This document shows positions 4,823 to 61,646 of a DNA stretch of 62,942 bases, in pieces. The notes beneath the pieces are model-generated. The model was not told the DNA's origin and did not search any database. It worked only from the letters and a program-made list of their open reading frames with translations. The stretch's first letter is position 1. Every line of letters begins with the position of its first letter. The stretch comes from a virus (Duplodnaviria > Caudoviricetes). The stretch is from IMG/VR virus record IMGVR_UViG_3300038314_001058, positions 1 to 62,942 of that record; one strand, written 5' to 3'. The position numbers and the translations under genes were made by a program.

Positions 4823-5719
4823 ATGACCATCAAAGTCGAAACAGGCATCGGCATCTACGGAGCGAACTCCTATGTTCCAGCTCAGTACGTCACCGACTAT
4901 CTCACGGCCCGTGGTCGCGAGACCGAGAACGAGTGGTCTTCGGCATCGCAGGAAGAGCAGGAAGAAGCCTGCATCGAGGCAACCGACTACATCGAGAAGA
5001 ACTTCGGCAGTCGTTTCCGTGGAACTCCTCTGACCTCGTTCGAGACCACCTACGCCGAGGCGACCGTCTCTTTTCTTGGGCTTCCCCTCACTGGCGAGAC
5101 GCTGACCGTCGGTGATGATGTCTACACTTTCGTGTCCGCCCTGACCGGTGAACCGTATGAAGTGCTGATCGGGGCGGATGCAGCGGCTACGAGTGCCAAT
5201 TTTGTAGACGCTCTGATGGGCGTGGTGCTGCAAGCCGGGGTAACGCACGGCGCAGCAACGCCAGCCAGCCGCCACAGCACGGCCACCAGCGCGGCGGGCG
5301 TTGCCACCCTTACCGCTACCGCCCCCGGCGCAAGCGGGGCCTACACGGAGCTCTCAGGGTCGCTCACAAACGTCACAATTACGGCGTTCACCGGCGGCAC
5401 GGACGGTGGCTCCCAGCCCCTGTCGTTTCCCCGGACCGGCATCTACGATCTTCGTGGCAACCGCATCCTTGGTGTCCCTGAGAAGATCAAACAAGCGACC
5501 GCCGAGTACGCCGTTCGCGCCCATGCTGCCCTTCTGATGCAGGACAGTGCTGCTGACGCCTCTGGTGGCCCGATCCTTCTCCGCCGTGAGAAGGTGGGTC
5601 CGATCGAAGAAGAATATGAATATGGAGGTTCCGTGTCGATCCAACGGTATCCTGCTGCCGATCGCCTGATCCGCGCCTTCACCGTGGCCGGTGCTGGGGG
5701 AGGCGTAATCCGTGCCTGA
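4823..5719 (+). CDS. Head-tail adaptor (DnaT-like family) with internal insertion
   Basis: ANSYV...YLTARG, ATDYIE, QPLSFPR, EKVGPIEEEY motifs; synteny. Confidence 0.7.
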   Translation: MTIKVETGIGIYGANSYVPAQYVTDYLTARGRETENEWSSASQEEQEEACIEATDYIEKNFGSRFRGTPLTSFETTYAEATVSFLGLPLTGETLTVGDDVYTFVSALTGEPYEVLIGADAAATSANFVDALMGVVLQAGVTHGAATPASRHSTATSAAGVATLTATAPGASGAYTELSGSLTNVTITAFTGGTDGGSQPLSFPRTGIYDLRGNRILGVPEKIKQATAEYAVRAHAALLMQDSAADASGGPILLRREKVGPIEEEYEYGGSVSIQRYPAADRLIRAFTVAGAGGGVIRA

Positions 5720-22141: not shown

Positions 22142-22460
22142 TGACTGGTCCTTGCTGGCTTTACTTAGACCGTAAGTAGAGTCAGCAAGGTTCAAGCGTA
22201 CCTCATTAAGCCTTTGTTTTAAAACGGTTTTAGACCGGACGGTTCCCTGACTTTACTGGCACCACAGCCCAAGTTGCACGGTAAACCGGCCCAAGGTGGG
22301 CGCAAACCGTGGAGCGTAGCGAGGCAGCAAAACCGGTAGAGTAAGTGGAGTATGTAGTGTTATTACTCTTATTATATAATAAAAACAAAAGGTTAAGGCA
22401 ACCCGGCTTGGCTTCGGCTGGCTCTACTTAGACCGTTTTGACTCTACTTGCAGTTTAAGA
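22142..22460. other. AT-rich non-coding region with repeated CTCTACTT/AAGTAGAG motifs; candidate replication origin A
   Basis: AT tract at about 22350-22390; motif copies at about 22173, 22422 and 22442. Confidence 0.45.
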
Positions 22461-30560: not shown

Positions 30561-31507
30561 TGCTCCAGTCGGTCATTGTCTCCCGCTTCTTCGACTACAT
30601 GAAGGAGCGGGAGGCGATCCGCCTCCGCAAGGAAGCCGATCGCATCGCACTCCTGGAGTTTGAAGACCCTCAAGGTCCACCGTGGACCGACGACCCCATC
30701 CTCCGCGAGTACAAGTTCACCAACGTCCGCCGTCACCATGACTGGACATCGGACATGCTCCGCTCCACCTTCTACAGCGACCACTTCAACGATGATCCCA
30801 AGGACATCATCATGATGTGCGCCTTCGCTCGCTACTTCGGCCGGTTCGAGTTCATCGAACACATGGGGTGGATCACCTACGACATGTGGGCCGATGGCTG
30901 GTTTGACGCGGTCAAGGATGAAGCCCAGGACTGGATCAACAAGCGCGAGAAGGTGTTCACCGGCGCTTATGTGATCACCAACCAAGGCATCATCGCTCCG
31001 AAGTATGAAGTGGTCGTGGACCATTTCCTCACCGACCTTCACGCAGCAGTTCCTGCGATTTTGGACATCGTTCAAAAGACAAGTTCGTGGGAGCATACCG
31101 CACGGGCCATGTCCGTGATCAAAGGCTTCGGTGGCACCGGCTTCATGACCAAGGAGATTCTCCTGGACACCATGATGACGGGCTTCTGGGGCGGCGACGT
31201 CGTCACCCAAGACGAGCGCAGCTTCACCTATCCGAGTGACTACTGGTCGTGGACCCCGATCGGTCCCGGTGGTGTCCGTGGTGCGGCCCGCCTCCTTGGG
31301 CATGAGGACCCCGGTTCTGCACGGATGAAGAAGGACGAGCCGATGTATGTCATCCTCGACCTTGTCCTGCAACAAGAAAACTACTGGCCCAAGGAATACG
31401 GGAAGCTGTCGCCGACCGACATCCAGTTCCAGCTTTGCGAGTTCGACAAGTACGAACGGGTCCGGCTGGGTCAGGGTCGCCCTCGCAGCAAATACAAGCC
31501 GAGATAA
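30560..31507 (+). CDS. 5-hydroxymethyluracil DNA kinase-like protein (aGPT-Pplase1 family)
   Basis: ERE.IR..K, PWTDDPILREYKFTNVRR..D, GAY.I, LCEFDKYER...G.GRPR..Y; start at TGATG overlap. Confidence 0.8.
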   Translation: MLQSVIVSRFFDYMKEREAIRLRKEADRIALLEFEDPQGPPWTDDPILREYKFTNVRRHHDWTSDMLRSTFYSDHFNDDPKDIIMMCAFARYFGRFEFIEHMGWITYDMWADGWFDAVKDEAQDWINKREKVFTGAYVITNQGIIAPKYEVVVDHFLTDLHAAVPAILDIVQKTSSWEHTARAMSVIKGFGGTGFMTKEILLDTMMTGFWGGDVVTQDERSFTYPSDYWSWTPIGPGGVRGAARLLGHEDPGSARMKKDEPMYVILDLVLQQENYWPKEYGKLSPTDIQFQLCEFDKYERVRLGQGRPRSKYKPR

Positions 31508-31521
31508 CGAAAGGAAGTCTC

Positions 31522-32526
31522 ATGTATCGTCAGGGAAACCCCTATTGCATTCAGGTCGAGTTCGTGGAGGGCTGCAATCTTCGCTGCACCTTCTGCGGCC
31601 TGAACGGCATCCGGGGCAAAGACAACAACTACAAGATGATGACTCTCGAGACAGCCGAACGGGTTGCCAGCGAGATGAAGCGTCTCAAGTGGAACAGCCG
31701 TCTGGAGTTCGCCATGCACGGCGAGCCGACGATGAACCCCGCTGCCCCTGCCCTCGTTCGGACTTTCCGCCAGCATCTGCCGAAGGCATATCTCCTCATG
31801 GAAAGCAACGGCGGCGGCATCATCGGCAAGAACTCGGCCGAAAATGTCAAGACGCTCTTCAGCGAGGGTCTCACGACTCTGGCCTTCGACGAATACCAGA
31901 ACGTCAAGCTGGTGCCGAAAATTCTCGACAGTCTGATGCAGATGGACCCGATGTTCATGCGCCAGACCGGCGACGTACTGTTCGAAGATGACGGCTTCCC
32001 CGTGGTGTTCTACGACTATCCGTCGTGTGGCAACGCCGGGAACCCGCATCAGCGGAACAAGGTTCGCCGACTGGTTCACATCCGACCGATCGACGTTTCC
32101 ACCTCTGGCACCCACGCCTCCTTGGGCAATCATGCCGGGGCTGGAGCGCCCAAGAATGATCGGGCGATGGGTAAGCGGTGCGCGAAACCGTTCCGTGAGA
32201 TGAGCATCCGCTGGGATGGCTCTGTCAGCATCTGCTGCAACGACTGGCGTGGCGAAATGCCGGTCGGCAACGTCCACGAGATGGACCTTGATGAGATCTG
32301 GCATTCCGATCGCTTCTACGCCGCACGTCACAAGCTCTACCACGGGCAGCGTGACTTCGGTGCCTGTGACGGGTGTGACCACCTGTCCTATCGCCCCGGC
32401 ATCCTGCCGGATCACCTCGGTAAGGAGGAACTGCCGGAACCTTCTGCCGATCACCTTCAGGTCATCGAGGAGATGCTCAAAGAAGGGCCTCTCACCGAAC
32501 CTGTCCTCCGCCCCTGGGAGTTCTGA
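31522..32526 (+). CDS. Radical SAM enzyme with SPASM/twitch domain
   Basis: CNLRCTFC, HGEPTMNP, C.KPF...IRWDGSVSICCNDW...GNV, CDGC. Confidence 0.9.
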   Translation: MYRQGNPYCIQVEFVEGCNLRCTFCGLNGIRGKDNNYKMMTLETAERVASEMKRLKWNSRLEFAMHGEPTMNPAAPALVRTFRQHLPKAYLLMESNGGGIIGKNSAENVKTLFSEGLTTLAFDEYQNVKLVPKILDSLMQMDPMFMRQTGDVLFEDDGFPVVFYDYPSCGNAGNPHQRNKVRRLVHIRPIDVSTSGTHASLGNHAGAGAPKNDRAMGKRCAKPFREMSIRWDGSVSICCNDWRGEMPVGNVHEMDLDEIWHSDRFYAARHKLYHGQRDFGACDGCDHLSYRPGILPDHLGKEELPEPSADHLQVIEEMLKEGPLTEPVLRPWEF

Positions 32527-32528
32527 TC

Positions 32529-33512
32529 GTGACCAAGATCATCAACCTCTTCTACCTGACGCCGAACACGACCGGCGGCTGGGTGACCTACCTGTCCCAC
32601 CTCATGAAAGGCTTTCGTGAGGCTGGGGTCCAGGTCAATCTCTACAAGGTCGGCAACAACACCGAGCGGAAGACCCGTCCGTTCGGCTATGGTGAGGTCT
32701 ACCGCAACCTCTGCCGTGACGATGCTCTCGACAAGACGATGGAGCATCCCACACTGATCGTCGCTGTCGGCAAGAAGTTCGCTGAGGTGGCCGAGGACCT
32801 GATCTTCGCCGGCGCGAAGCTGGTGGTTCACGACCCGACCGAGCTCAAGAACCTGCCTGCAATGGGCGATGGTGAGGACTGCGTGATCATCCGCAAGTCC
32901 GGCCACAAGTTCCTGCCGGGGGCGACGTTCATCCCGCATCCGTATCAGCGGATCAAGCCCAATGGGGAGGCCGTGGAGCATCGCCGGTGCGTCAGCATCA
33001 GCCGCATCGACTTCGACAAGCACACCGAAATCCTGCTGGACGCCAACCGCATCCTCAAGGCAGAGGATGAGGAGGAGATCGTCATCCGTGGCTTCGAGAA
33101 CCGACTCTACACCCGGTTCAAGATTTGCCCGCACTATCCCGAGTGGACGCAGTCAGTGGCGGCGTATCCACGGGAGCATGATGCGGCCTTCAACATCCTG
33201 CGCGGCTTCGACTTCATGGCTGACATGTCGATCATCAAGGGCGACGGCGGCGGCACCCAGTACACGACGCTTGAAGCGTGGGACGCTGGTGCAATCCCGA
33301 TCATCCAGGCAGACTGGCTCCAGCCCGATGGGGAAATGGTCGGCGACATCAACTGCCTGAGCGTCGAAGACGCCGAACACCTCGCCTTGCTCCTTTCCGG
33401 AGGGCTCAGTCCCACTGCCATGGACCGTATGCGGGAGGAAGGGCTCAAGTCTCTCAAACAGCATGATGCGGCGATGATCGCCGGTCAGTATCTCGACTTC
33501 ATGGAGGGTTAA
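32529..33512 (+). CDS. GT-B fold glycosyltransferase
   Basis: N-terminal GGWVTY, ISRIDFDKH, GGTQYTTLEAWDAGAIPI (GT4-like nucleotide-sugar binding region). Confidence 0.75.
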   Translation: MTKIINLFYLTPNTTGGWVTYLSHLMKGFREAGVQVNLYKVGNNTERKTRPFGYGEVYRNLCRDDALDKTMEHPTLIVAVGKKFAEVAEDLIFAGAKLVVHDPTELKNLPAMGDGEDCVIIRKSGHKFLPGATFIPHPYQRIKPNGEAVEHRRCVSISRIDFDKHTEILLDANRILKAEDEEEIVIRGFENRLYTRFKICPHYPEWTQSVAAYPREHDAAFNILRGFDFMADMSIIKGDGGGTQYTTLEAWDAGAIPIIQADWLQPDGEMVGDINCLSVEDAEHLALLLSGGLSPTAMDRMREEGLKSLKQHDAAMIAGQYLDFMEG

Positions 33513-34565
33513 ATGAAGTTCATCGAAGTACCGAACGTCGGGGAAGCTCTGGCCTACATGGGCGCGACCCTTCAGGAGTGGGGCATTCCCCGCGACAGCC
33601 GCAACGGAGAGGTGTTCGTAGCCGATGGGCCGGTTACGACCATGTACCACTATCCCACACAGCGGGTCATCTTCGACCCGGCACGGGATGCCAACCCGTT
33701 CTTCCACTTCATGGAAGGTCTGTGGATGATCGCCGGCCGGAACGATGTCGCGTGGCCGGTGCAGTTCAACTCCACCTTCGGCCAGTTCTCCGATGATGGT
33801 GAGACCTTCCACGGTGCCTATGGCTATCGCTGGATCAACCACTTCAGCGAGCAGATCGATGTGATCGAGCCGAACGAGGAGATCGATGAGATCAAACTCC
33901 AAGGCAAGGTCTGGGCACCGATGAATCAGCTTGCCCACGTCGTGGAAATGCTGAAGGCGAACCCGGATGAGCGGCGGGCGCTGGTGACCATGTGGTCGCC
34001 GGAGGATGACCTCGGTTACAAGGGCAAGGATGTCCCCTGCAACCTGAGCATCCTGTTCAGCATCAGTGTTCATGGCAAGCTGGACATGACCGTCACCAAC
34101 CGCTCCAATGACATGATCTGGGGCGCATACGGTGCGAACGCCGTTCACATGTCGATGCTCCAGGAATACATGGCAGCATGGATCGGAGTGCCGGTCGGTC
34201 GCTACTGGCAGGTATCCAACAACTTCCATGTCTACACCAAGACCATGGACAAGGTGACGCCGACCCTTGAATACCAGGATCCGTACCTCAGCGAGGTCAA
34301 GCCGTTCCCGATGGTCAACACCGACATCGAGTCATGGGGGATGGACCTGTCCCTGTTCATGGAGGTCGGGCCGGTGCCGAACTTCCAGGACAAGTTCTTC
34401 CGCAAGGTTGCCTCACCCATGTGGGAGACGTGGTTCACCTGGAAGGACGCCAGCGGCGGTCGCACCAAGAGCCAGCGGGCGCTCGCCGCTCTGGACGTGG
34501 CAAAGAACATCGCCGCCTCTGACTGGCGCAAGGCTTGCACCGAATGGCTGGAGCGTCGGGTATGA
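33513..34565 (+). CDS. Thymidylate synthase-family protein, probably dUMP hydroxymethylase
   Basis: RDANPFFH, GAYGYRW, DVPCN, NRSNDMIWGAYGAN (Asn = dUMP specificity); context with 5hmdU kinase. Confidence 0.82.
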   Translation: MKFIEVPNVGEALAYMGATLQEWGIPRDSRNGEVFVADGPVTTMYHYPTQRVIFDPARDANPFFHFMEGLWMIAGRNDVAWPVQFNSTFGQFSDDGETFHGAYGYRWINHFSEQIDVIEPNEEIDEIKLQGKVWAPMNQLAHVVEMLKANPDERRALVTMWSPEDDLGYKGKDVPCNLSILFSISVHGKLDMTVTNRSNDMIWGAYGANAVHMSMLQEYMAAWIGVPVGRYWQVSNNFHVYTKTMDKVTPTLEYQDPYLSEVKPFPMVNTDIESWGMDLSLFMEVGPVPNFQDKFFRKVASPMWETWFTWKDASGGRTKSQRALAALDVAKNIAASDWRKACTEWLERRV

Positions 34566-35110
34566 GCTACAAGCTGGAAACCAAAGTCCAGCGGGTGAAG
34601 TTTGCTCGTGAAGCGGGGGCGGTTCGCCGCCTCCACATCCACCGCATCATCGGTGAGTATGACGTGGGTCAGCATACCTACGGAGCTCTCTGTCTTCTAA
34701 GAGTCTTGAACCCGTCTGCCGCCGCCCGCCTCATTTGGGCTGTCCTTTCACACGACAAGCCAGAGCGCCTCACTGGCGATATCCCTTCGCCAGCGAAGAA
34801 TGAGACCCACTGGTTCTGCGCAAGCCACTATGCTGAGCACGAAAACCAGATCCTCACGGATACCGGCTTCGACTGGGATGAGCTCACTGAGGAGGAAGAG
34901 CAATGGCTGAAGGCGGTCGATGCTCTTGAGTTCTTCTTGTTCTGTCTTGATCAAGAGATGCTTGGTCATCAGGGGCTCTGGAAGCCTAAGAAGAAAATCA
35001 TGTCGTACATCGAGGGACAGCTTGAGGTCTGGCCTACCGGGGTCCGGCATTTCTATGAAGACCTTCTCGTCTCCGAATGGGAGATGTGCGATGAACTGGG
35101 AGAAAACTGA
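34562..35110 (+). CDS. HD-domain nucleotidase (YfbR-like)
   Basis: V.R.H...VGQH, LSHDKPERLTGDIPSPAK, LKAVD.LE. Confidence 0.8.
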   Translation: MSYKLETKVQRVKFAREAGAVRRLHIHRIIGEYDVGQHTYGALCLLRVLNPSAAARLIWAVLSHDKPERLTGDIPSPAKNETHWFCASHYAEHENQILTDTGFDWDELTEEEEQWLKAVDALEFFLFCLDQEMLGHQGLWKPKKKIMSYIEGQLEVWPTGVRHFYEDLLVSEWEMCDELGEN

Positions 35111-35727
35111 TGAGTGGCACTTTCGTTGCCCAAGAAGGAGGCGACCACTACCAAGCTGAATATCAGCATTGGGACTGGGTCATCGACTTGAACCTCCACT
35201 ACCTTCCAGCGACCGCGACCAAGTACGTCGCACGTTGGCGGAAGAAGAATGGCATCCAGGATCTCCGCAAGGCGGTGACCTACATCGAGAAGTGGGAGAA
35301 GGCTGGTCTGCCCTCCAACTCCCGCTCGCACCAGTACATCCAGAACTCCTATCCGCTGACGATGGCATTCAACGCCAGCGCCAAGCTGGACGATCTGGAG
35401 GCCGACTTCATGTTCGCCGTCGTGCTGGTGGCCGTCAGCAACGCCAAGGGAGAACTGGACGAGGTTAAGGCCATTCTCCAGAAACTTTTGGCCTTGGCAG
35501 AGACCGCTCAGAGCGCCACACAGGGGCAAGCGCCCGCTGGCGGCGGCAACCCTACCGGCGCGGCCACCAGCGCGCCACAGGCGGCGCATTTGGGGGCTGC
35601 TGGCGGTGTAGCAGGGCAGGGCGCGGCCACCAGCGCGGCCACAGGGTCCATCCCGGTCCTGGATATGCACCCCCGGCCGGATAATACCGGCCAGAAACAC
35701 CCGTTCGGGTATAACGAGGAGGACTGA
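35110..35727 (+). CDS. DUF3310/SaV-like protein (putative nucleotide kinase) with Ala/Gly-rich insert
   Basis: QEGGDHY, KYVARWRKKNGIQDLRKA..YI. Confidence 0.7.
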   Translation: MSGTFVAQEGGDHYQAEYQHWDWVIDLNLHYLPATATKYVARWRKKNGIQDLRKAVTYIEKWEKAGLPSNSRSHQYIQNSYPLTMAFNASAKLDDLEADFMFAVVLVAVSNAKGELDEVKAILQKLLALAETAQSATQGQAPAGGGNPTGAATSAPQAAHLGAAGGVAGQGAATSAATGSIPVLDMHPRPDNTGQKHPFGYNEED

Positions 35728-52118: not shown

Positions 52119-52318
52119 CAATGAGCAACGTGATCCACATCCGCTTCCACGAAAATCTGGTAGGCGTTACCCCGGAGCAGACCCGTATGCTGAACAAGAT
52201 GCGATACGGCATGGAGCTCAGGGCGTGGAAACTTCGGCGAGATGCGGCTGAAGAGGAAGGTCGGTACGAGGATATGGACCGGCTGGCGGTTGAGTACGAG
52301 ATGATCGGCCTGCCTTAA
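52115..52318 (+). CDS. Hypothetical protein
   Basis: SD AAGGA. Confidence 0.55.
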   Translation: MTMSNVIHIRFHENLVGVTPEQTRMLNKMRYGMELRAWKLRRDAAEEEGRYEDMDRLAVEYEMIGLP

Positions 52319-52479
52319 GACCCTGTGGCCGCGCTGGCGCTAGGGGCTTGCCCTACCATGCACCCAGCGCGGCCACAGCGCGCCGCTGGTGGGCCTTGCC
52401 GGGGTTGCCGGGTAGGGTAGTGGCCGCGCGGCGCTGGTGGCCCTGTATGGCGCGCATATTGGGGCGCGAAACTTAGCCG

Positions 52480-52508
52480 TTGTTCGCAACTTGGCGCGGT
52501 GCTAGGTT
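52480..52508 (+). promoter_or_regulatory. Sigma70-like promoter
   Basis: TTGTTC-17-TAGGTT. Confidence 0.55.
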
Positions 52509-55212: not shown

Positions 55213-55590
55213 CTTCAGGTTGCATCCTGTGTTAGTTAAAGAAAAACGGCATTTGTTGAACTAACTATACTAAATCATCGGACGCTCCGCAAGTGCTTGA
55301 TTTCATTAACTTGTGTCACGTTAATAGGGCGTATGGGGTAGTAACACCACCAGCCGCAAGTTGCTCAGGGCGCGCGGGCGGCGGTCGTTTGTCGCGTTTC
55401 TCTGGCGGCTGCCGGGTGCCCAGAAGAGAGGGAGGCCCTGCTGGAAAGCCGTGGCGGCAAGTAGTAGTGTTATTTATTTATTATTATTATTAATATAAAA
55501 TAAAAGAATATAAACTGTTGGTTTCGCTGCGCTTTTTCCGTGTCAGTTTGGAAGCATAAGATCACAGCTGACTCTACTTAGATATTCGCG
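55213..55590. other. AT-rich non-coding region related to 22142-22460; candidate replication origin B
   Basis: GTAGTGTTATT plus AT tract at about 55464-55514; GCTGACTCTACTTA at about 55567. Confidence 0.45.
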
Positions 55591-55661: not shown

Positions 55662-56354
55662 ATGGAGCAGCTGACCATGACAGAAAATACGCGGAAATAT
55701 CACAGAGATCCGTCCAAGCCTCAGAATGGATTCAAGAGCAACCGATTCATCGCCGAGGAGGTCACGCTCCGCGATGGAACGAAAGAAGTTCGGATCCGTT
55801 CGGTCAACGGCACGTTCACGCCTGACCTCTGGGATGTCTTCCTGGACAACTACCGCGAACACGGGATGATGAAGAAGGCCGCTGCCGCTGCCGGAGTTTC
55901 TGCATCCGCCGTCCGCCGGGTGATCACGAAGAATAAGGAGTTCGCCGAAGCCTGCCTGGAGGCGGAAGAAGAATATCGCGACAAGGTCGTCGCGCATGTT
56001 CAGAATCTGGCGCTCAATGGCACGGTGCGGAAGAGCTATGATCGTCAGGGCGCGCTGATCTCGGAAGAGCAGGTGTTCATGCCGAATATCGTTCTGGCAG
56101 AAGCCCGCCGCGTGGAGGAAGGATATCGCGATAAGCGAGAGGTTGCTATGAACGTGAGCGGCGGCGTGCTGGTCGCTCCTTCTGGGCTGAACTCCATTGA
56201 CGACTGGGAATCCAAATACGGCGATGGAGAGACGATTGAGGGCAAAGCCCAAGAAGTGGAGCCGGAAACTCCGACCGATCGAATCTCCAATCATAAGCCG
56301 ATCCGAGGCGGCGTAACACCGGAGATGCTCCGAGACCACAAGACGGACGACTGA
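55662..56354 (+). CDS. terS: Terminase small subunit
   Basis: FL..Y..HG....AA.AAGVS HTH, FAEAC.EA, A.NG, YRDK..V.MN..GGVLVAP; upstream of terL. Confidence 0.7.
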   Translation: MEQLTMTENTRKYHRDPSKPQNGFKSNRFIAEEVTLRDGTKEVRIRSVNGTFTPDLWDVFLDNYREHGMMKKAAAAAGVSASAVRRVITKNKEFAEACLEAEEEYRDKVVAHVQNLALNGTVRKSYDRQGALISEEQVFMPNIVLAEARRVEEGYRDKREVAMNVSGGVLVAPSGLNSIDDWESKYGDGETIEGKAQEVEPETPTDRISNHKPIRGGVTPEMLRDHKTDD

Positions 56355-56388: not shown

Positions 56389-56423
56389 AAAAAAAGCCCG
56401 CCATGTCCGAAGACAGGCGGGCT
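56389..56423 (-). terminator. Intrinsic terminator of the inverted early operon (possibly bidirectional)
   Basis: Minus strand GCCCGCCTGTC-TTCG-GACATGGCGGGC-T7. Confidence 0.85.
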
Positions 56424-56445
56424 CATTTTCTTGGGCTTGTGGTTC

Positions 56446-56712
56446 TCAGAAGATGCGCTCTTCTTCCAGATCCCTCGTCATACCCCGAATGTTTCCGGTA
56501 TGAACGATGATGGTCCAGGTCTGGTCGTAGACCGTCTCCCACGGCTTGTCCTCATGCTGGATCCAGCGAGGGGCGACCGTGTTCTTGATCTCAAGGAAAT
56601 CTCCACGGGTCGGTGTGATGACCCGCTTCAGCGATTCGGTCAGAACGACCATCTCAGCTGCGCTATCACAGCAGAAAGGGATCGTGGACAGAGGTGCGAT
56701 ATCGTGTGCCAT
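56446..56712 (-). CDS. Putative early hypothetical protein
   Basis: AAGGAGAGAACTATGGC start. Confidence 0.7.
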   Translation of the reverse strand: MAHDIAPLSTIPFCCDSAAEMVVLTESLKRVITPTRGDFLEIKNTVAPRWIQHEDKPWETVYDQTWTIIVHTGNIRGMTRDLEEERIF

Positions 56713-56722
56713 AGTTCTCTCC

Positions 56723-56944
56723 TTAACGATTGACCCAGTGGCATTCTTCGGTGATCGGGTCACCCTCGTAGCCACTGGCACAGAAGTCGTAGTAGTTGCT
56801 TCCCGGTGATTTGAAGACCGGAGCCGCCTGAAGACCGGGGTCGGCTTCCAGGGTCAGCGTCCAGCCACACAGGTAAATCGGCCGGAACGAATTGGCGCAG
56901 AGCATAGCCTGAGCGACGATCGGCGATACGGGAGGTGTTGCCAT
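56723..56944 (-). CDS. Putative early hypothetical protein
   Basis: AAGGAGAGAACTATGGC start. Confidence 0.7.
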   Translation of the reverse strand: MATPPVSPIVAQAMLCANSFRPIYLCGWTLTLEADPGLQAAPVFKSPGSNYYDFCASGYEGDPITEECHWVNR

Positions 56945-56964
56945 AGTTCTCTCCTTGGTGGTGA

Positions 56965-57010
56965 AGTCCACCGGATGCCAGCCTCCGGAGAGGCTGGTCA
57001 CCGCTAGACT
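56965..57010 (-). promoter_or_regulatory. Intergenic long hairpin H1 (candidate RNase III site)
   Basis: Near-identical to 57437-57482. Confidence 0.65.
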
Positions 57011-57078
57011 TACTTGAAGGCATGGTATATCGTGAGGACGATGAACGCTATGCCTAGGATAGTTAGAAACGAACCCAT
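57010..57078 (-). CDS. 22-aa single-TM peptide MGSFLTILGIAFIVLTIYHAFK
   Basis: Fills the gap between the 57084 stop and hairpin H1. Confidence 0.55.
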   Translation of the reverse strand: MGSFLTILGIAFIVLTIYHAFK

Positions 57079-57083
57079 GCCGA

Positions 57084-57410
57084 TTATCCGGCGTTGTTGA
57101 CCGCCTGACGAATGCGCGCCATGAGCGACAGCTGGATTGCCTTGTCCACGAGTTCCTCGAAGTCGCCGTCCGACAGATACAAGGTGTCCTTGATCTGGTG
57201 GAACGGCTCCAGGTCCAGAAGATTGGCCGAGTCATGCATGGGATCATGCACGACGACGATGCGGCCGGAATCCTGGATGACGCGCAGGCCCAGACGATTG
57301 AGTTCCTCGAAGTCGATGACGACATGGGGAGTGCTCTTCGGCATGGCGTTGTCCTCCAGAACGAGGTCAACGGAGCGGCGGGTCTTGGGAGCGGATTTCG
57401 CGATTGCCAT
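57084..57410 (-). CDS. Putative early hypothetical protein
   Basis: AAGGAAAGTACTATGGC start. Confidence 0.7.
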   Translation of the reverse strand: MAIAKSAPKTRRSVDLVLEDNAMPKSTPHVVIDFEELNRLGLRVIQDSGRIVVVHDPMHDSANLLDLEPFHQIKDTLYLSDGDFEELVDKAIQLSLMARIRQAVNNAG

Positions 57411-57436
57411 AGTACTTTCCTTTCGAATGGTGGGGA

Positions 57437-57482
57437 AGTCCACCGGATGCCAGCCTGGAGACAGGCTGGTCACCGCTAGACT
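57437..57482 (-). promoter_or_regulatory. Intergenic long hairpin H2
   Basis: AGTCTA-G-CGG-TG-A-CCAGCCTG-TCTC-CAGGCTGG-CA-T-CCG-G-TGGACT. Confidence 0.65.
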
Positions 57483-57634
57483 CACTGTTTCTTGAACTCC
57501 TTCCGCTGGCGAGCGACTTCCAGTCGCGTTCCGATGCTTGCCTCGTTGCCCTTGGCAAGCGCCGGAGGACACTTGGTGACCTGACCACCATTGGCGAGGA
57601 ACTCATTGATGAGGTCGATTTCATACTGTGCCAT
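57482..57634 (-). CDS. Small putative early protein (50 aa)
   Basis: AAGGAATATACTATGGC start; I.EFLANGG.VT.CP motif. Confidence 0.7.
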   Translation of the reverse strand: MAQYEIDLINEFLANGGQVTKCPPALAKGNEASIGTRLEVARQRKEFKKQ

Positions 57635-57660
57635 AGTATATTCCTTTCTGGTGTAGTGCA

Positions 57661-57710
57661 TAAGCGCACTGGATGGGAGCCTGTTTCCAGGCTCCGCACC
57701 AGTATGCTCA
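57661..57710 (-). promoter_or_regulatory. Intergenic long hairpin H3
   Basis: Same architecture as H1/H2 with compensatory changes and a GAAA loop. Confidence 0.6.
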
Positions 57711-58205
57711 GGAGGCCTTAGCTTCCTCCTTGGGCTCAGCCTTGGCGGCTTTCGCCTTGAGCCAAGCGTCCTCAGCCGCTTTGAACTCTTCGTCGGTTGC
57801 CTCACGGAGTTCCATGAGGCCGTGGTCCACGTAGAACAGCACGTCCAGGTGATCCAGACCGCCGGTCAGCTTGCAATCCTGAAGGGTCATGCCCTCACGA
57901 TACAGGTGGAACCGGCGGATACGCAGGGCCTTGCCGGGATGCTCGTTGATCTTGGTGATCACGCGGAGCATTTTCCGTTGCGGCTTGGCCTTGGCGACGT
58001 GAGCGGCTGCGCAGTTGCGGATCTTGGCCTCGTTGGCCTGGAATTCCGCGAACTCGATTTCCGCCTTGGTCGGCCCAAGAACTTCCGCCTCGGGAACTTC
58101 CGGGGTTTCCGGAGTTTCCACGGCCGGAGTTTCCACCACAGCGGCGTCCTTAGCAGCTGCATTCTTGCGGGTGGTGTTCTTGCGGGTGGTGTTTGCGTTT
58201 GCCAT
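57708..58205 (-). CDS. First gene of the inverted operon; paralog of 29790-30560
   Basis: ACTATGGC start; YREGMTL...GLDHLDVLFYVDHG. Confidence 0.75.
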   Translation of the reverse strand: MANANTTRKNTTRKNAAAKDAAVVETPAVETPETPEVPEAEVLGPTKAEIEFAEFQANEAKIRNCAAAHVAKAKPQRKMLRVITKINEHPGKALRIRRFHLYREGMTLQDCKLTGGLDHLDVLFYVDHGLMELREATDEEFKAAEDAWLKAKAAKAEPKEEAKAS

Positions 58206-58218
58206 AGTTTTAACTTTC

Positions 58219-58610
58219 CCATAAAGCGCAACCGGGATTGGTTGCCCAAGACCGTGCCCAAGGAGGGCACGGCTAAGGGCAAACAACCCGACCCAATAGG
58301 GACAGGTTACTTGCGTAGGAAAGGATTGGCGTTTTGCTGGTGTTTGCTACCCCTGCCGCCCCAGAACTTAGCGTGGCCCGGTAGTGGTTACAGCGGCCCT
58401 TGCGAGGCGCACTACTGGCGGACGCTGCCCAACGGCAGAGTGTACGCTGGAAACCAGAGCGGGTTGCAGGAGCGGACCAAGTGCCACCGTGCCCTGCATT
58501 GCCGCCCACACTTGCGCTTGGGCGAACCCGACCTACCAGCCGTGGCCCCTATATGCCCGACCCCCGTAGGGGTGGGAAGGGCTAGGCACCGGAGCAAGCC
58601 CCCGTGCCAT
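58219..58610 (-). ncRNA. Candidate ~400-nt structured leader RNA
   Basis: Lies between promoter 58617-58645 and the first gene; several hairpins including a UACG loop; no convincing ORF. Confidence 0.45.
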
Positions 58611-58616
58611 GCAGTT

Positions 58617-58645
58617 ACCTTACATTTGCACTAGCGACCTCGCAA
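58617..58645 (-). promoter_or_regulatory. Promoter of the inverted operon
   Basis: Minus strand TTGCGA-17-TAAGGT. Confidence 0.6.
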
Positions 58646-58772
58646 CAACAAAATGTCCAATGGGGCAAATTAATTGCGAGCGGACGTAGCCTCCCCTCAG
58701 CCGTCCGCTCAGCGGAGCGGTCCTCGGCGGACCCTGCCCTAGTGGGACAGCCATAGGTGCGACCCTGCCGGA

Positions 58773-58929
58773 CGCCACAGGGGCAGGGGCAGGGCAGGGC
58801 AGGGCAGGGCAAGGCCACAGGGGCACCACAGGGCGCGCCACAGGGGCAGGGCAGGGCAAGGGCAGGGCAAGCCCCTGCCACCGGCCACAAGGGCACCACA
58901 GGCCACGCCACAGGGCTGTGGCGCGCTGT
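58773..58929. repeat. Low-complexity GGGCA and (G)CCACAGGG repeat array
   Basis: Tandem AGGGC units and at least five CCACAGGG copies. Confidence 0.85.
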
Positions 58930-59241
58930 CCACCGGCCACCCCACCCCACCGACGGGTCAGGGGCAGTCGGGCGGGGTGCAGGCCCCGTGCCCATCCATC
59001 TCGGCCAGACATACGGGATCACATGCAAGATAGCATATGACCAAGAGCAGACGACAAAGGACCGAGGACCGAGGACAAAGGACAGACGACCTCCTCCAGA
59101 GAACGAAGGATAGGAGAACCACTGACGAAGATCCTCCCACCCACAAAATAATAAAATAGAACAGAGACCTGGATGCAAAAGACAACGTAGAGTCAATGGA
59201 GTCAGTAGAGGCGGCGCACAATCACGCGTGAAACAGCGACC

Positions 59242-59270
59242 TTGTCATTTGCCGGTCGGCATGGTACAGT
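59242..59270 (+). promoter_or_regulatory. TTGTCATTTGC-class promoter 6
   Basis: TTGTCA-17-TACAGT. Confidence 0.7.
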
Positions 59271-59317
59271 GGACAAAATACGACCATACCCCTTTTGTGA
59301 GAAGCGATGCGCGCTCC

Positions 59318-59569
59318 ATGCACGAATTAGAGCTATCTGCGGCACGAGCCGCGTGGAAGGCCGCTGGTGCGACTGTGAAGAAGGCTCCGGAGACCATGGA
59401 CGATGGTGTCCGCTATTTGCAGTTGTATGAGGAAGAGCCCAAGACGAGGGCGGGGTGGAATCAGTTCAGGAAGGCTGCGAAGGTACTTGCTGACGAGCTC
59501 CCGGACGAGCATCATCCTTTTGATGTCTACATCCTCTCCCTTGGGCTTTGTTGGGAGATGATCAAATGA
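59318..59569 (+). CDS. Hypothetical protein
   Basis: ORF downstream of promoter; start uncertain. Confidence 0.5.
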   Translation: MHELELSAARAAWKAAGATVKKAPETMDDGVRYLQLYEEEPKTRAGWNQFRKAAKVLADELPDEHHPFDVYILSLGLCWEMIK

Positions 59570-59814
59570 GGTGCGGGAATGCCGGGGAAGACGCAACAAA
59601 TATCGTGAGGTTCGACATTTCGGAGTATGATCGTTTGGATCCGGCGCTCCGAAAGATGCTTCGGATGGCTCCGGTCCCGATTGATCCGGTGTCGTTCTAT
59701 AGAGCGTACCTGGAGAATGGTGCGAATATGTATGTTTTCCAAGGTGAATTTGATAGATGGCTGAAGCGAGAATATCCAGACTACGATCCCACTGATCTGG
59801 TAAATCGCGAATGA
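59566..59814 (+). CDS. Hypothetical protein
   Basis: ATGA coupling. Confidence 0.5.
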   Translation: MRCGNAGEDATNIVRFDISEYDRLDPALRKMLRMAPVPIDPVSFYRAYLENGANMYVFQGEFDRWLKREYPDYDPTDLVNRE

Positions 59815-59883
59815 GGTAAGTGAAAATTTGCGCTTGCCAGACAAGCCCAAGTGAGGCAACATCGGGGTGAAAGGACCACTCCG

Positions 59884-60123
59884 ATGAATGACCACGATCA
59901 AGAGCACAAAACAGGCCCACAACTCGTCAAGTTTCCCTCAACAGAAGACGGTATCCGCTCAGTCGAAGAGACGCTGGAGAAGGCGAAGAAACGCGGACTG
60001 ACCGAGGTTGTCGTCCTGGGCTTCGATGAAGACGATGAGCATGTCGTCCTCGCGTCAACGATGCTGAACAAGGACATCCTCTGGCATGGTGAGCTCCTTC
60101 GCAAGTTCGCGCTTGGGGACTGA
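59884..60123 (+). CDS. Hypothetical protein
   Basis: SD AAGGA; L.EVVVLG.D motif. Confidence 0.65.
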   Translation: MNDHDQEHKTGPQLVKFPSTEDGIRSVEETLEKAKKRGLTEVVVLGFDEDDEHVVLASTMLNKDILWHGELLRKFALGD

Positions 60124-60125
60124 GC

Positions 60126-61646
60126 ATGAACGACTTCCCTGACAACGTCATCTGGAAACCGCAGGCTGGATCGCAGGAGGCTTTTCTTGCGTCCACACCT
60201 ATCTTCGAGGTTCTGTTCCAAGGGACACGGGGCGGTGGTAAGACTGACTGTCTTCTCATGTCCTATGGTCAGTTCGTTGGACGAGGATTCGGAGCAGGGT
60301 GGAAAGGCATTCTGTTTCGGCAGACCTATAAGCAGCTGACCGACGTCATTACCAAGACCAAGAAGTGGTTTCCACAGATCTGGCCTCAGGCGAGGTTCAA
60401 CGGTTCGGAGCATAAGTGGGTCTGGCCGACTGGTGAAGAACTGCTTCTGCGACAGTTCAAGAAGGACGATGACTACTGGAACTATCACGGTCACGAGTAT
60501 CCCTGGATCGGATGGGAAGAGCTCTGCAACTGGCCGACTGATGCTGGATACAAGCGAATGTTCTCGTGCTGCCGGAGCTCGACGCCCGGTATGCCTCGTA
60601 TGGTCCGTGCAACGACGAACCCGTATGGTCCCGGCCACAACTGGGTGAAGATGCGGTTCCAGCCGCAAAATATGAACATGAAGGTCCGCCGTGGCCTGAT
60701 TGACGAGCAGGGTCTGGAGGAGCCGCCTCGCCTCTCCATCTTCAGCCGACTTGACGAGAACAAGATCCTGCTGAAAGAGGACCCGGACTACATCAACAAG
60801 ATCGCTGCGTCGGCGAGGAACGAGGCTGAGCGAAAGGCTTGGCTGGAGGGTTCCTGGGACGTTGTCGCTGGCGGTATGTTCGACGACGTGTGGGATCCCA
60901 AGTACAATCTCATCAAGCCATTCGAGATTCCGTGGAACTGGCGCATCGATCGGAGCTTCGACTGGGGTTCGTCCAGACCATTCTCTGTCGGCTGGTGGGC
61001 AAGGTCCAACGGTGAAGACGTCAAGCTGGCGAGCGGTCGTTGGGCTTCGACTGTGAAGGGTGATCTTTTCCGTATCAATGAATGGTACGGGTGGACCGGG
61101 AAGCCCAACGAGGGCGTCCAGATGCTGGCGACTGACATCGCTCGTGGTATCGTGGAGCGTGAGATCCAGATGGGTCTTCGGGTTCAAGGCGACGGTGGGT
61201 ATTGTCGTGTGAAGCCTGGTGTAGCCGACAGCCAGATCTTCGCTGCGGAGAACGGCAACTGCATCGCTGTCGACTTCAAGTCAAAGGTTCGTCTCGACGA
61301 TGGCATTCAGTACAAGGGCATTCAGTGGCTTGAAGCAGACAAGCGCCCCGGTTCACGCGCTACCGGCTGGGTGCAGATGCGCCAGATGCTCAAGAATGCT
61401 CACCCGACCGTCTTGGGCGAGAGGGACGATGGGTCTCTCATCCTTGGGCCTCGGGAGAAGCCCGGTCTGTTCATTTTCAGCAACTGCGACAATTGGGCGA
61501 GGACTGTTCCTGTTCTGCCCAGAGACGAAGACAACCCGGATGACGTCAACACTGATACCGAGGATCACATTGCTGACGAGACGCGATACAAGGTCCGATC
61601 GGTCGGTGTGTCTGTCAGTGGCGGTACAGTCAGCGGCCAACACTAG
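60126..61646 (+). CDS. terL: Terminase large subunit
   Basis: WKPQAGSQ, GTRGGGKTD, WIGWEEL, RATTNPYGPGHNWVK, SFDWGSSRPFS, EDHIADETRY. Confidence 0.93.
   Translation: MNDFPDNVIWKPQAGSQEAFLASTPIFEVLFQGTRGGGKTDCLLMSYGQFVGRGFGAGWKGILFRQTYKQLTDVITKTKKWFPQIWPQARFNGSEHKWVWPTGEELLLRQFKKDDDYWNYHGHEYPWIGWEELCNWPTDAGYKRMFSCCRSSTPGMPRMVRATTNPYGPGHNWVKMRFQPQNMNMKVRRGLIDEQGLEEPPRLSIFSRLDENKILLKEDPDYINKIAASARNEAERKAWLEGSWDVVAGGMFDDVWDPKYNLIKPFEIPWNWRIDRSFDWGSSRPFSVGWWARSNGEDVKLASGRWASTVKGDLFRINEWYGWTGKPNEGVQMLATDIARGIVEREIQMGLRVQGDGGYCRVKPGVADSQIFAAENGNCIAVDFKSKVRLDDGIQYKGIQWLEADKRPGSRATGWVQMRQMLKNAHPTVLGERDDGSLILGPREKPGLFIFSNCDNWARTVPVLPRDEDNPDDVNTDTEDHIADETRYKVRSVGVSVSGGTVSGQH

What the first reader, a model, noticed from the sequence alone, without database searches (positions are those of the whole stretch)
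58219..58640. 422 nt with zero TC on the template strand: structured leader RNA of the inverted operon
Seen: the + strand has no TC from 58219 to 58640 (dozens expected), while GA is tolerated. The limits coincide with the -35 box (TC at 58640) and the SD of the first gene (58217). The minus-strand RNA therefore has no GA and folds into several stems: CCCACCCC-UACG-GGGGUCGGG, GUAGUG...CACUAC, CUGG-UUU-CCAG and H4. Established: HK022 put RNA makes RNAP processive in cis. Inference: host RNAP gets a modification-free runway until a nascent RNA element (or a coupled ribosome) licenses elongation through hypermodified template. Alternatively it is a released ncRNA.
Basis: partly seen in the sequence, partly recalled or inferred. 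Interest (0 to 1): 0.85.

Follow-up and report, generated by a model that had tools for sequence, protein, structure and literature searches.

The report
GA-free structured phage leader RNA
A marine phage carries a roughly 400-base folded RNA in front of its leftward operon that contains not one G-A step, a rule that selection keeps in related phages and that may let it escape enzymes acting on that two-letter signal.

Summary
The + strand has no TC from 58218 to 58640 (423 nt; 22.5 expected; none of 20,000 shuffles fell below 9).

The tract is the template-strand image of a ~405-nt untranslated leader RNA on the - strand. This RNA heads a five-gene leftward operon. It belongs to a structured RNA family that has no Rfam match.

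I found nine copies, all upstream of the same gene ("gene X") in related uncultured phages. Covariation is strong: 27 of 85 pairs show double changes, against 7.0±2.0 in shuffles. Conserved G·U pairs place the fold on the - strand. In two metatranscriptome runs the only matching contigs are short ones confined to the conserved core.

GA is absent between promoter and Shine-Dalgarno in six of the nine copies, from two lineages that are 75% identical. A neutral-drift simulation keeps GA-freeness in only 0.01% of trials, so it is selected.

The reason is not settled. I favour evasion of an RNA-directed, GA-specific host activity, for which CmdT is a published precedent.

Small ORFs in the same zone of relatives avoid TC on their sense strand. 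No single hypothesis explains that together with the leader.

The parts
58218..58640 (+). TC-free tract on the + strand, which is the template strand of the leader
   Evidence: 0 TC against 22.5 expected; no shuffle out of 20,000 fell below 9
58206..58610 (-). Untranslated leader RNA of about 405 nt, from the inferred start near 58610 to the base before the start codon; no GA except in the SD
   Evidence: The start is inferred from promoter-like hexamers, not mapped.
58328..58585 (-). Conserved structured core of the RNA: a 5' domain present in all nine copies, plus a 3' domain
   Evidence: Model R1 hits 58428-58585 at 139.5 bits. Alignment A4 and covariation. RNA-library contigs 58328-58565 and 58363-58564.
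58617..58645 (-). Promoter-like site: TTGCGA (58645-58640), a 17-nt spacer, TAAGGT (58622-58617)
   Evidence: Read. Same spacing in L006 and L012 relative to a conserved CATGGC. Not reported by the consensus scan.
58240..58288 (-). Conserved long hairpin between the core and the SD; candidate processing site
   Evidence: Helix at columns 365-417 of A3, kept in 9 of 9 sequences with compensatory changes. Also present in the loci that lack the RNA.
58203..58220 (-). SD-like GGGAAAG (58220-58214), which holds the first GA of the transcript, and the ATG of gene X (58205-58203)
   Evidence: direct repeat D1
57708..58205 (-). Gene X, 165 aa, no Pfam or PHROG family; conserved C-terminal domain with a weak winged-helix-like likeness
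56446..57634 (-). Four further small ORFs of the leftward operon (57634-57367, 57410-57084, 56944-56723, 56712-56446), each behind the same initiation cassette
   Evidence: Direct repeats D1 and D2; no family hits
58773..58915 (+). G-rich tandem repeats just upstream of the promoter; free of TC from 58724 to 58929 and of GA from 58771 to 58952
   Evidence: (D3, D4)

Best explanation
SHOWN. The TC-free tract is the DNA image of a GA-free RNA. This is a structured 5' leader of about 405 nt, read leftward from a sigma-70-like promoter (inferred start near 58610) up to the Shine-Dalgarno of gene X. Gene X is the first of five small genes that share one initiation cassette.

The RNA is a member of an undescribed family. 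Its nine copies all lie upstream of gene X homologues, in those related phages where gene X is inverted relative to the terminase genes. It folds into about 11 helices supported by covariation, and the folded strand is the - strand. Its core occurs in RNA libraries.

GA-freeness is held by selection in two lineages. The fold has adapted to it:
- Every stacked UC in a helix pairs with GG through a wobble pair.
- The GNRA-type loops are all GCAA.

INFERRED, about 40% for this step. GpA is excluded because it is the recognition element of an RNA-directed activity met during infection. The published precedent is CmdT, an anti-phage ADP-ribosyltransferase that modifies A in GA of single-stranded RNA. 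G/A-preferring endonucleases are a second precedent. One hit would inactivate a long non-coding RNA, so every GA is purged. Coding sequence cannot do the same, because Asp and Glu codons need GA.

INFERRED. The conserved hairpin before the SD is a processing site that separates the RNA from the gene X message.

What the RNA itself does is unknown. It could act in cis on operon expression, or in trans after release.
For: Tract and statistics.

Homologues:
- BLAST and the alignments give nine copies, not all distinct records.
- Covariance model R1 finds exactly these 9 in 35 sources totalling 229,632 bases.

Structure:
- 31 of 77 predicted pairs are compensatory with 9 sequences.
- 27 of 85 are compensatory with 5 sequences.
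- 97.6% of cells are paired, and 27 pairs carry a double change against 7.0±2.0 in 500 shuffles (0 of 500 reach it). Slid controls give 0-3.

Strand:
- 67 of 412 cells are G·U.
- The reverse-strand fold is worse: -75.5 against -88.3 kcal/mol, and a covariation term of -2.66 against -6.52.
- Single-sequence fold z-scores are -3.0 for the - strand and -1.8 for the + strand.

GA-freeness:
- GA observed/expected is W 0/22.4, L006 0/24.4, L025 0/25.6 and L022 0/21.1. The shuffle minima are 8-12.
- L024 and L029 have only 1-2 GA, at the SD.
- With 61 random substitutions, the W-to-L006 divergence, the aligned core stays GA-free in 0.0001 of 20,000 trials.
- The GA-free run starts 6 to about 55 nt upstream of the inferred start and ends at the SD in every GA-free copy.

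Adaptation of the fold: stacked UC pairs with GG in 4 of 4 cases (W), 5 of 5 (L006), 5 of 6 (L025) and 3 of 4 (L022, the fourth facing a gap).

Expression: X18 holds one 239-nt contig at 58328-58565, and X19 one 204-nt contig at 58363-58564. Both match at 100%, and each is that run's only piece on 3,401 nt.

Lineage-specific relaxation fits a sporadic host factor. L012 and L026 have 13 GA against 21 expected, and L023 has 6 against 21. L025 shares flanks with L012 at 85-92% identity yet carries a GA-free core.

Precedents: the CmdT abstract and passages (PMC11618068), and RNase Y's GA preference (PMC11780869, passages).
Against: - No GA-specific enzyme, host or defence system is identified here. 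The host is unknown.
- CmdT does not modify double-stranded or structured RNA, yet GA is missing from helices as well.
- GA is over-represented genome-wide (observed/expected 1.30). Gene X and the four genes after it show no GA avoidance, so the operon's messages would stay vulnerable.
- Small ORFs in the same zone of relatives avoid TC on their sense strand: 0-3 observed against 8-20 expected. This holds even in G001, which also carries the GA-free leader. An RNA-level GA agent does not explain it.
- In the GA-containing alleles, GA shows no preference for paired positions (small numbers).
- The promoter is weak by consensus and was not called by the scan.
- RNA-library contigs of X13 (56389-59294) and X15 (58336-58685) run past the inferred start.
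- Contigs cannot show strand, ends or level, and RNA libraries can contain DNA.
Confidence: 0.45

Rival explanations
1. DNA-level cause. The phage hypermodifies thymidine in 5'-TC-3'. The template strand of the untranslated leader is kept free of the bulky base so that host RNA polymerase, with no ribosome behind it, is not stalled or terminated on incoming modified DNA.
For: - The phage has a thymidylate-synthase homologue (PF00303, E 1e-22; phrog_5131, E 1e-113), an adjacent radical-SAM/SPASM protein, an HD-type phosphatase-like protein and a DUF3310/nucleotide-kinase-like protein.
- Terminase places it near M6/PAE1-type phages at 56% identity.
- For M6, ViI and phiW-14, resistant restriction sites share TG or TC. 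This was proposed as the modification context (PMC6449724, abstract and passages).
- 5-hmdU is converted in sequence-specific contexts (PMC8989533, passage).
- The exclusion is total in paired and unpaired RNA positions alike, as expected for a DNA rule.
- TC is the second most over-represented dinucleotide genome-wide, yet it is excluded here.
Against: - The modification and its context are not shown for this phage.
- TG is enriched on the same template (30 against 21.8 expected), although TG is the main context in the one phage mapped in detail (PMC13458397).
- The other 27 intergenic regions are not cleared of GA or TC.
- The operon's coding regions have normal GA.
- L012 and L026 share 85-92% identical flanks with L025 yet carry 13 GA in the leader.
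- Relatives with the same TS and rSAM genes but co-oriented gene X have no such leader.
- The zone's small ORFs clear TC from the non-template strand.
- With T7 RNA polymerase, template-strand modifications had only positive or negative modulating effects (PMC11550810, abstract only).
Confidence: 0.25
2. One-strand-only rule at the DNA level. Within the early control zone, TC (the modified step) may sit on one strand but not on both. Enzymes that need modified bases or lesions on both strands then cannot break the first-entering DNA. Coding blocks can only clear the sense strand, whereas the non-coding leader cleared the template strand.
For: - One rule covers both the leader and the ORFs. In the leader, sense TC is about as expected (21/27, 21/25, 14/22, 34/29, 30/27) while GA is 0. 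In the ORFs, sense TC is 0-3 against 8-20 expected, and GA about equals the number of Asp+Glu codons.
- Both kinds of block occur in one genome, G001.
- Several long contigs of relatives end within 0.3-0.7 kb of this zone.
Against: - An island inside the zone, 58641-58770, holds 7 TC and 6 GA.
- L012, L026 and L023 break the rule.
- There is no evidence on entry polarity, genome ends or such a nuclease.
- The blocks coincide with transcription units, which points to transcription or RNA rather than duplex DNA.
Confidence: 0.1
3. Mutational footprint: a TC-specific cytosine deaminase or similar process erased TC on one strand, with no selection on the dinucleotide.
For: TT is in excess on the + strand (21 against 11.9) and CG is low (30 against 41.2).
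Against: - T content of the tract (17%) is below the genome's 20%.
- Helices are intact, with 97.6% of cells paired.
- Two diverged lineages, including their unalignable flanks, are both GA-free.
- GA has reappeared in L023 and is present in L012 and L026, so there is no overwhelming mutational bias.
Confidence: 0.03
4. The tract is protein-coding on the + strand (ORF 57822-58634, 270 aa), or the absence of TC is chance.
For: One + frame is open across the tract, with a GC profile by codon position of 0.66/0.49/0.68.
Against: - The first half of that ORF is antisense to gene X, which has homologues in more than 40 loci.
- Read from the sequence, the tract's codons are rich in TTG, AGG, ATA, CTA and TTA, and in Cys, His and Trp.
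- Substitutions follow base pairing rather than codons.
- Chance is excluded.
Confidence: 0.01

Closest known systems
HK022 put RNAs (cis-acting antiterminator RNAs).
   Same: A folded nascent RNA encoded directly downstream of an early phage promoter and upstream of the genes it would control.
   Different: put elements are recalled as two adjacent stem-loops of about 70 nt. This RNA is 250-405 nt with about 11 helices, shows no sequence likeness, and has no demonstrated effect on polymerase. Nothing like dinucleotide exclusion is recalled for put.
Leaders and intercistronic hairpins of phage T7 early transcripts processed by RNase III (recalled)
   Same: An early-type operon of small genes read by host polymerase from near a genome landmark. 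A leader of a few hundred nt ends in a long hairpin just before the first gene. Similar hairpin repeats precede other genes of the operon (D2).
   Different: Processing is not shown here. The core is a conserved, multi-helix fold rather than spacer sequence. It is GA-free.
Dinucleotide suppression in eukaryotic RNA viruses (CpG against ZAP, UpA against RNase L; recalled), and the GA-specific mRNA ADP-ribosyltransferase CmdT of CmdTAC (PMC11618068)
   Same: A two-letter signal that an immune effector reads in single-stranded RNA is removed from viral RNA. GA is exactly the step CmdT modifies.
   Different: Here the exclusion is absolute, confined to one non-coding RNA and not genome-wide. GA is enriched elsewhere. 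No CmdT-like gene or host is in hand, and CmdT spares structured RNA.
Sequence-context-specific thymidine hypermodification of M6, ViI and phiW-14-type phages (PMC6449724, PMC8989533, PMC13458397)
   Same: The phage lineage is related by terminase. It carries a TS homologue and radical-SAM genes. TC is one of the two proposed contexts.
   Different: The context in this phage is unknown. TG is not avoided. The published work describes protection from restriction, not locally modification-free strands.

Membership tests
Any Rfam 15 family | Match to a curated covariance model at its gathering score | tested here: not met
   - 0 matches at gathering score in the whole window.
- 0 matches at E<=5 in 57600-59400.
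- In six relatives' loci there were 9 matches, all below gathering score and none on the core; they fall on long hairpins or elsewhere.
HK022 put-type antiterminator RNA | Two adjacent stem-loops of about 70 nt just downstream of the promoter (recalled definition) | tested here: not met
   The consensus fold has about 11 helices over more than 250 nt. No put model was available for scoring.
HK022 put-type antiterminator RNA | Acts in cis on RNA polymerase to suppress termination | not testable with these tools
   Needs transcription assays.
New gene-X leader RNA family (defined here) | Match to model R1 (160 positions, 35 pairs), on the sense strand directly upstream of a gene X homologue | tested here: met
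   Window 58428-58585 on the - strand scores 139.5 bits, E 1.2e-37. It is one of the 9 training sequences, so it matches by construction. Independent support comes from BLAST at 75% identity to L006 over 247 nt and from covariation.
New gene-X leader RNA family (defined here) | No GA between promoter and SD | tested here: met
   The window has 0 GA in 422 nt. The feature is met in 6 of 9 family members. L023 (6 GA), L012 and L026 (13 GA each) do not meet it.
M6-type thymidine hypermodification system | dUMP hydroxymethylase (thymidylate-synthase homologue) | tested here: inconclusive
   33513-34565 matches PF00303 (E 1e-22) and phrog_5131 (E 1e-113). Hydroxymethylase cannot be told from ordinary thymidylate synthase with these tools.
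M6-type thymidine hypermodification system | 5-hmdU DNA kinase and amino-acid:DNA transferase | tested here: inconclusive
   35110-35727 hits nucleotide-kinase PHROGs (E 2e-9) and DUF3310 below its cut-off. No transferase was recognised among the proteins scanned; not all ORFs were scanned.
M6-type thymidine hypermodification system | Modified base present in virion DNA, in TC context | not testable with these tools
   Needs chemistry or single-molecule sequencing of virion DNA.
Target of a CmdT-type RNA ADP-ribosyltransferase | GA dinucleotides in single-stranded RNA (PMC11618068) | tested here: not met
   The leader has none apart from the SD. On this reading that absence is the point. Whether such an enzyme exists in the host is not testable here.

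The most novel reading that the evidence does not exclude
A phage non-coding RNA has been purged of every GpA so that it is invisible to a dinucleotide-reading RNA-targeting immune enzyme, such as a CmdT-type ADP-ribosyltransferase or a G/A-specific nuclease. This would be the first case of dinucleotide-level immune evasion in a bacterial virus. By implication the RNA would be an early, essential anti-defence or takeover factor. The mirror-image TC-free small ORFs next to it would then mark a second dinucleotide-reading activity.
Probability: 0.3. Interest if true: 0.92.

Novelty: new variant of a known kind. Interest (0 to 1): 0.8.

Why it matters
Structured RNAs are normally rich in GA, through GNRA loops and sheared G·A pairs. 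A 400-nt fold with none, held that way across diverged phages, means something in the infected cell reads this two-letter step with near-lethal consequence.

Either main reading makes a testable prediction:
It would also show that phages keep selected strands free of their own modification.

It also adds a new phage RNA family with good covariation support. And it exposes a wider zone of strand-specific TC/GA exclusion that current models do not explain.

Tried and rejected
Searches that found nothing or only noise
- Rfam gave nothing.
- DNA searches of the phage collection with 57000-60500 (near mode) and 58150-59250 (distant mode) found nothing.
- Gene X as a protein has no match in that collection.
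- A single-protein scan of viral contigs with gene X found no relative. The alignment-based scans did.
- The pattern scan returned two chance hits in coding DNA (L019, L020; read). The scan of 185,579 species' genomes found 0. A looser viral scan found only the two contigs already known. A loci-wide pattern with the wrong block order found nothing.
- The tract has no repeat elsewhere in the window; the best self-match is 13 nt. No tRNA or tmRNA was found.
- The consensus promoter scan did not report the proposed promoter.

Gene X
- The model has mean pLDDT 68.3, with 82-93 in the C-terminal domain.
- Foldseek against PDB gave no match at E<=0.001.
- The best VIA-align hit is Z 4.8 to a PriA winged-helix region (60 aligned residues, rmsd 3.3), below the level the tool calls meaningful.
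- Atlas rows also point weakly to PriA, with TM 0.31-0.37.
- The PDB profile search gave one hit at E 0.18.
- I draw no function from these results.

Tests without power or result
- Whether GA in the GA-containing alleles sits in helices: 4 of 12, 5 of 11 and 2 of 5 have both bases paired, at 60-65% overall pairing. No signal.
- Type A relatives (gene X co-oriented with the terminase genes) show no long TC- or GA-free run near gene X.
- Parts of the laid stretch without cover in X15, X18 and X19 are not used as evidence.
- The Mesyanzhinovviridae paper (PMC11946847) had nothing on termini or early RNAs in the passages found.
- Two literature searches listed no report of a GA-depleted phage RNA. 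This is not a proof of absence.

Readings considered and dropped
- Avoidance of palindromic sites: GATC occurs 510 times and TCGA 414 times, both abundant genome-wide.
- CRISPR PAM avoidance, Rho or CsrA site avoidance, primase-site avoidance, UV photoproduct avoidance, and a telomerase-like template role. None predicts absolute, one-strand loss of a single dinucleotide confined to this transcript.
Full report
What the window is

The 62,942-nt window is one whole viral record, rated 100% complete by CheckV.

Gene content is that of a siphovirus:
- tape measure protein, tail proteins, terminase large subunit (60126-61646) and a terminase-small-subunit-like gene (55662-56354);
- DNA polymerase, primase, helicases, ligase and ribonucleotide reductase.

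The tail genes carry GTA-type and phiJL001-type Pfam domains. The terminase is 56-58% identical to those of Pseudomonas PAE1/MP1412-type phages, Sphaerotilus phage SN1 and phiJL001.

A nucleotide-modification cluster lies at 31435-35727. It holds a radical-SAM/SPASM protein, a thymidylate-synthase homologue, an HD-type protein and a DUF3310/nucleotide-kinase-like protein. This makes a thymidine modification plausible. It is not shown.

The observation

The + strand has no TC between 58217/58218 and 58640/58641. Local composition predicts 22.5 TC. In 20,000 shuffles the minimum was 9. GA is near expectation on the same strand, at 21 against 27. TC is otherwise the second most over-represented dinucleotide in the window (observed/expected 1.34).

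Of about 250 sliding 500-nt windows, only the three covering 58001-59000 are low in TC+GA. Of 28 intergenic regions of 70 nt or more, the one holding the tract (58206-59227) has TC 23 against 42 expected. A few others are low in TC or GA at about half of expectation. None is cleared of either.

Anatomy

On the - strand the tract runs from a promoter-like site to the SD-like GGGAAAG and the ATG of a 165-aa ORF, here called gene X (57708-58205). The promoter-like site is TTGCGA, 17 nt, TAAGGT, at 58645-58617.

A 20-nt direct repeat (D1) shows that five - strand ORFs share the same initiation cassette. Their starts are at 58205, 57634, 57410, 56944 and 56712. A 59-nt hairpin-bearing repeat (D2) precedes two of them. 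So the inverted operon is real. None of its products matches Pfam or PHROGs.

Upstream of the promoter lie G-rich tandem repeats, free of TC from 58724 to 58929 and of GA from 58771 to 58952, and then a purine-rich tract.

Relatives

An alignment of gene X homologues retrieved 15 viral and 28 metagenomic loci. One of them, L021, is the window itself.

Two architectures exist:
- Type A: TerS, gene X and TerL are co-oriented. There is no long leader.
- Type B: gene X is inverted, as in the window.

Among type B loci, BLAST, alignment and a covariance model find nine copies of an RNA homologous to the tract, always on the gene X sense strand directly upstream of gene X. They are the window, L006, L022, L023, L025, L024, L029, L012 and L026. 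L024 and L029 are cut by the contig end or deleted. Some loci are duplicates of others: L018 and L027 equal L006; L038 and L049 equal L012.

The model found no further copy in 35 sources totalling 229,632 bases. A pattern scan of 185,579 species' genomes found none. No further copy turned up in viral contigs.

It is a structured RNA on the - strand

- RNAalifold on nine sequences predicts 77 pairs, 31 with compensatory changes. On the five long sequences it predicts 85 pairs, 27 compensatory.
- Counting on that structure gives 97.6% of 412 cells paired, and 27 pairs with changes on both sides against 7.0±2.0 in column shuffles (0 of 500 reach it). With the partners slid by 1-3 columns the count is 0-3.
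- Sixty-seven of the 412 cells are G·U. On the other strand these would be C·A mismatches.
- The reverse-strand control folds worse: -75.5 against -88.3 kcal/mol, covariation term -2.66 against -6.52, and 21 of 77 compensatory pairs with more broken pairs.
- The single-sequence fold gives z -3.0 on the - strand and -1.8 on the + strand.

The CUGG/CCAG segment instead forms a long-range helix with GGCUGGUAGG, which covaries in L006 and L012.

A long hairpin just before the SD is conserved in all nine copies. It is also present in type B loci that lack the RNA.

GA-freeness is selected

GA observed against expected is 0/22.4 in the window, 0/24.4 in L006, 0/25.6 in L025 and 0/21.1 in L022. L024 and L029 have only the SD's GA.

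The window and L006 are 75% identical over 247 nt and unalignable in the flanks. Even so, both flanks are GA-free in both phages. Applying 61 random substitutions to the aligned core leaves it GA-free in 0.0001 of 20,000 trials.

The GA-free run begins 6 to about 55 nt upstream of the inferred start, and it ends at the SD.

The fold has accommodated the rule:
- Stacked UC in helices pairs with GG in 4 of 4 (window), 5 of 5 (L006), 5 of 6 (L025) and 3 of 4 (L022) cases.
- The recurrent GNRA-type loops are GCAA.

There are exceptions. L023 has 6 GA. L012 and L026 carry a shorter allele that lacks the 3' domain, with 13 GA against 21 expected. L025 shares flanks with L012 at 85-92% identity but has an L006-like GA-free core. 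So the core moves as a cassette, and the constraint differs between close relatives.

Expression

Six RNA-library runs hold part of the stretch. Four were laid.
- X18 and X19 (one study, two samples) each have a single short contig on the 3,401 nt laid. These cover 58328-58565 and 58363-58564, are 100% identical, and lie exactly on the conserved core.
- X13 has one 2,906-nt contig over 56389-59294. X15, from the same sample as X13, has pieces over the operon and over 58336-58685.

Contigs cannot give strand, ends or level, and RNA libraries can contain DNA. This is therefore a hint of an abundant core RNA, not proof. The X13 and X15 contigs run past the inferred start at 58610.

Why no GA?

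Three readings survive.

(A) An RNA-level agent that reads GpA.
- CmdT of the CmdTAC anti-phage system ADP-ribosylates N6 of A in GA of single-stranded RNA and belongs to a broadly distributed enzyme class (PMC11618068, abstract and passages).
- RNase Y sites are most enriched for GA (PMC11780869, passages).
- This reading fits three things: the exclusion coincides with the untranslated transcript, it is absolute, and it is relaxed in particular lineages, as expected for a sporadic host factor.
- Against it: CmdT spares structured RNA; GA is enriched genome-wide (observed/expected 1.30); and the operon's coding regions are not depleted.

- This rests on the TG/TC context proposed for M6, ViI and phiW-14 (PMC6449724) and on the modification genes.
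- Against it: TG is enriched on the template; the other intergenic regions and the operon genes are not cleared; the L012 and L026 alleles carry GA; and relatives with the same TS and rSAM genes have no such leader.

(C) A one-strand-only rule for TC in the early zone.
- This is prompted by an unexpected finding. Small ORFs in the same zone of relatives avoid TC on their sense strand and use GA about as often as they have Asp+Glu codons. TC observed against expected is:
  - G001 99-aa ORF: 1/17;
  - L017 58-aa ORF: 0/8;
  - L017 minus-strand ORF: 3/20;
  - L044 ORF1: 0/10;
  - L044 ORF2: 0/18;
  - first 300 nt of L044 gene X: 1/12.
- Synonymous differences between L017 and L047 indicate that the 58-aa ORF is coding.
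- G001 has both a GA-free leader and such an ORF, behind a second copy of the same promoter motif.
- Against (C): an island with 7 TC and 6 GA at 58641-58770, and the same exceptions as above.

I put (A) at about 0.4, (B) at 0.25 and (C) at 0.1. The remainder is unknown. No hypothesis explains the leader, the ORFs and the exceptions together.

Comparison with what is known

- No Rfam family matches.
- put RNAs, as I recall them, are much smaller two-hairpin elements. Their function cannot be tested here.
- The operon layout resembles T7 early transcripts with RNase III hairpins (recalled).
- The dinucleotide logic resembles CpG/UpA suppression in eukaryotic RNA viruses (recalled), with CmdT as the bacterial effector that reads GA.
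- Two literature searches listed no report of a GA-free phage RNA.

Verdict

The tract is a new, well-supported structured leader or non-coding RNA. Its GA-freeness is under selection, which is unusual for any structured RNA. The mechanism behind the exclusion is open between an RNA-directed and a DNA-modification cause, and both are directly testable.

Noticed in passing
window 1700, 11855, 12265, 12410, 26036, 32819, 35424, 39596, 40361, 49752, 50163, 52385, 52433, 60991 (+); 5283, 25025, 35564, 35627, 42484, 55347 (-): An octamer that I recall as the E. coli Chi site occurs 14 times on the + strand and 6 times on the - strand, against 1.5 expected per strand. Several copies sit inside the GC-rich islands listed in the next item.
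   Followed up: partly
window 5212-5352, 35508-35647, 52305-52484: Dispersed GC-rich islands built from shared motifs (of the CCACAGGG and GGCCACCAGCGC types), free of both TC and GA for 130-180 nt. Two of them lie inside coding genes: the head-tail adaptor gene and the 3' end of the DUF3310/kinase-like gene.
   Followed up: no
window 56446-58220 (-): Five small ORFs share a near-identical SD-plus-start cassette (repeat D1). A 59-nt hairpin repeat (D2) precedes two of them. This is a modular early-type operon of unknown function.
   Followed up: partly
window 58773-58977 (+); also 52391-52417: Three G-quadruplex-type G runs lie on the + strand within and next to the tandem repeats upstream of the leader promoter. 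There are only four such runs in the whole window, all on the + strand.
   Followed up: no
L053:1147-1446 (G001); L017:5709-5885 and its minus-strand neighbour; L044:55-947: Small ORFs in the same zone of relatives have almost no TC on the sense strand, and use GA only about as often as they have Asp/Glu codons. This mirrors the GA-free leader and is unexplained.
   Followed up: partly
L025 versus L012 and L006: The leader core is exchanged as a cassette. L025 matches L012 in both flanks (85% and 92%) but matches L006 in the core (88%).
   Followed up: partly
L005, L006, L008, L016 (contig ends); L042/L043: Several long contigs of relatives end within about 0.3-0.7 kb of gene X or the repeats. 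One 124-kb contig holds gene X twice, about 62 kb apart. This suggests genome termini or an assembly break at the repeats.
   Followed up: no
window 58605-58610 (-); L006:279-284; L012 near 5013: The inferred +1 is the A of a conserved CATGGC, so the leader would begin with AUGGC, the same start as the operon's genes. The short frames that follow are not conserved in length or sequence.
   Followed up: no
window 22340-22400 and 55460-55510: Two intergenic regions share an AT-rich motif beginning GTAGTGTTATT. This may be a second promoter class.
   Followed up: no
Gene X homologues (alignment A5): The N-terminal part of gene X carries variable numbers of short Pro/Glu-rich tandem repeats, for example 5-residue units repeated 2 to 7 times, ahead of a conserved C-terminal domain of about 100 aa.
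   Followed up: no
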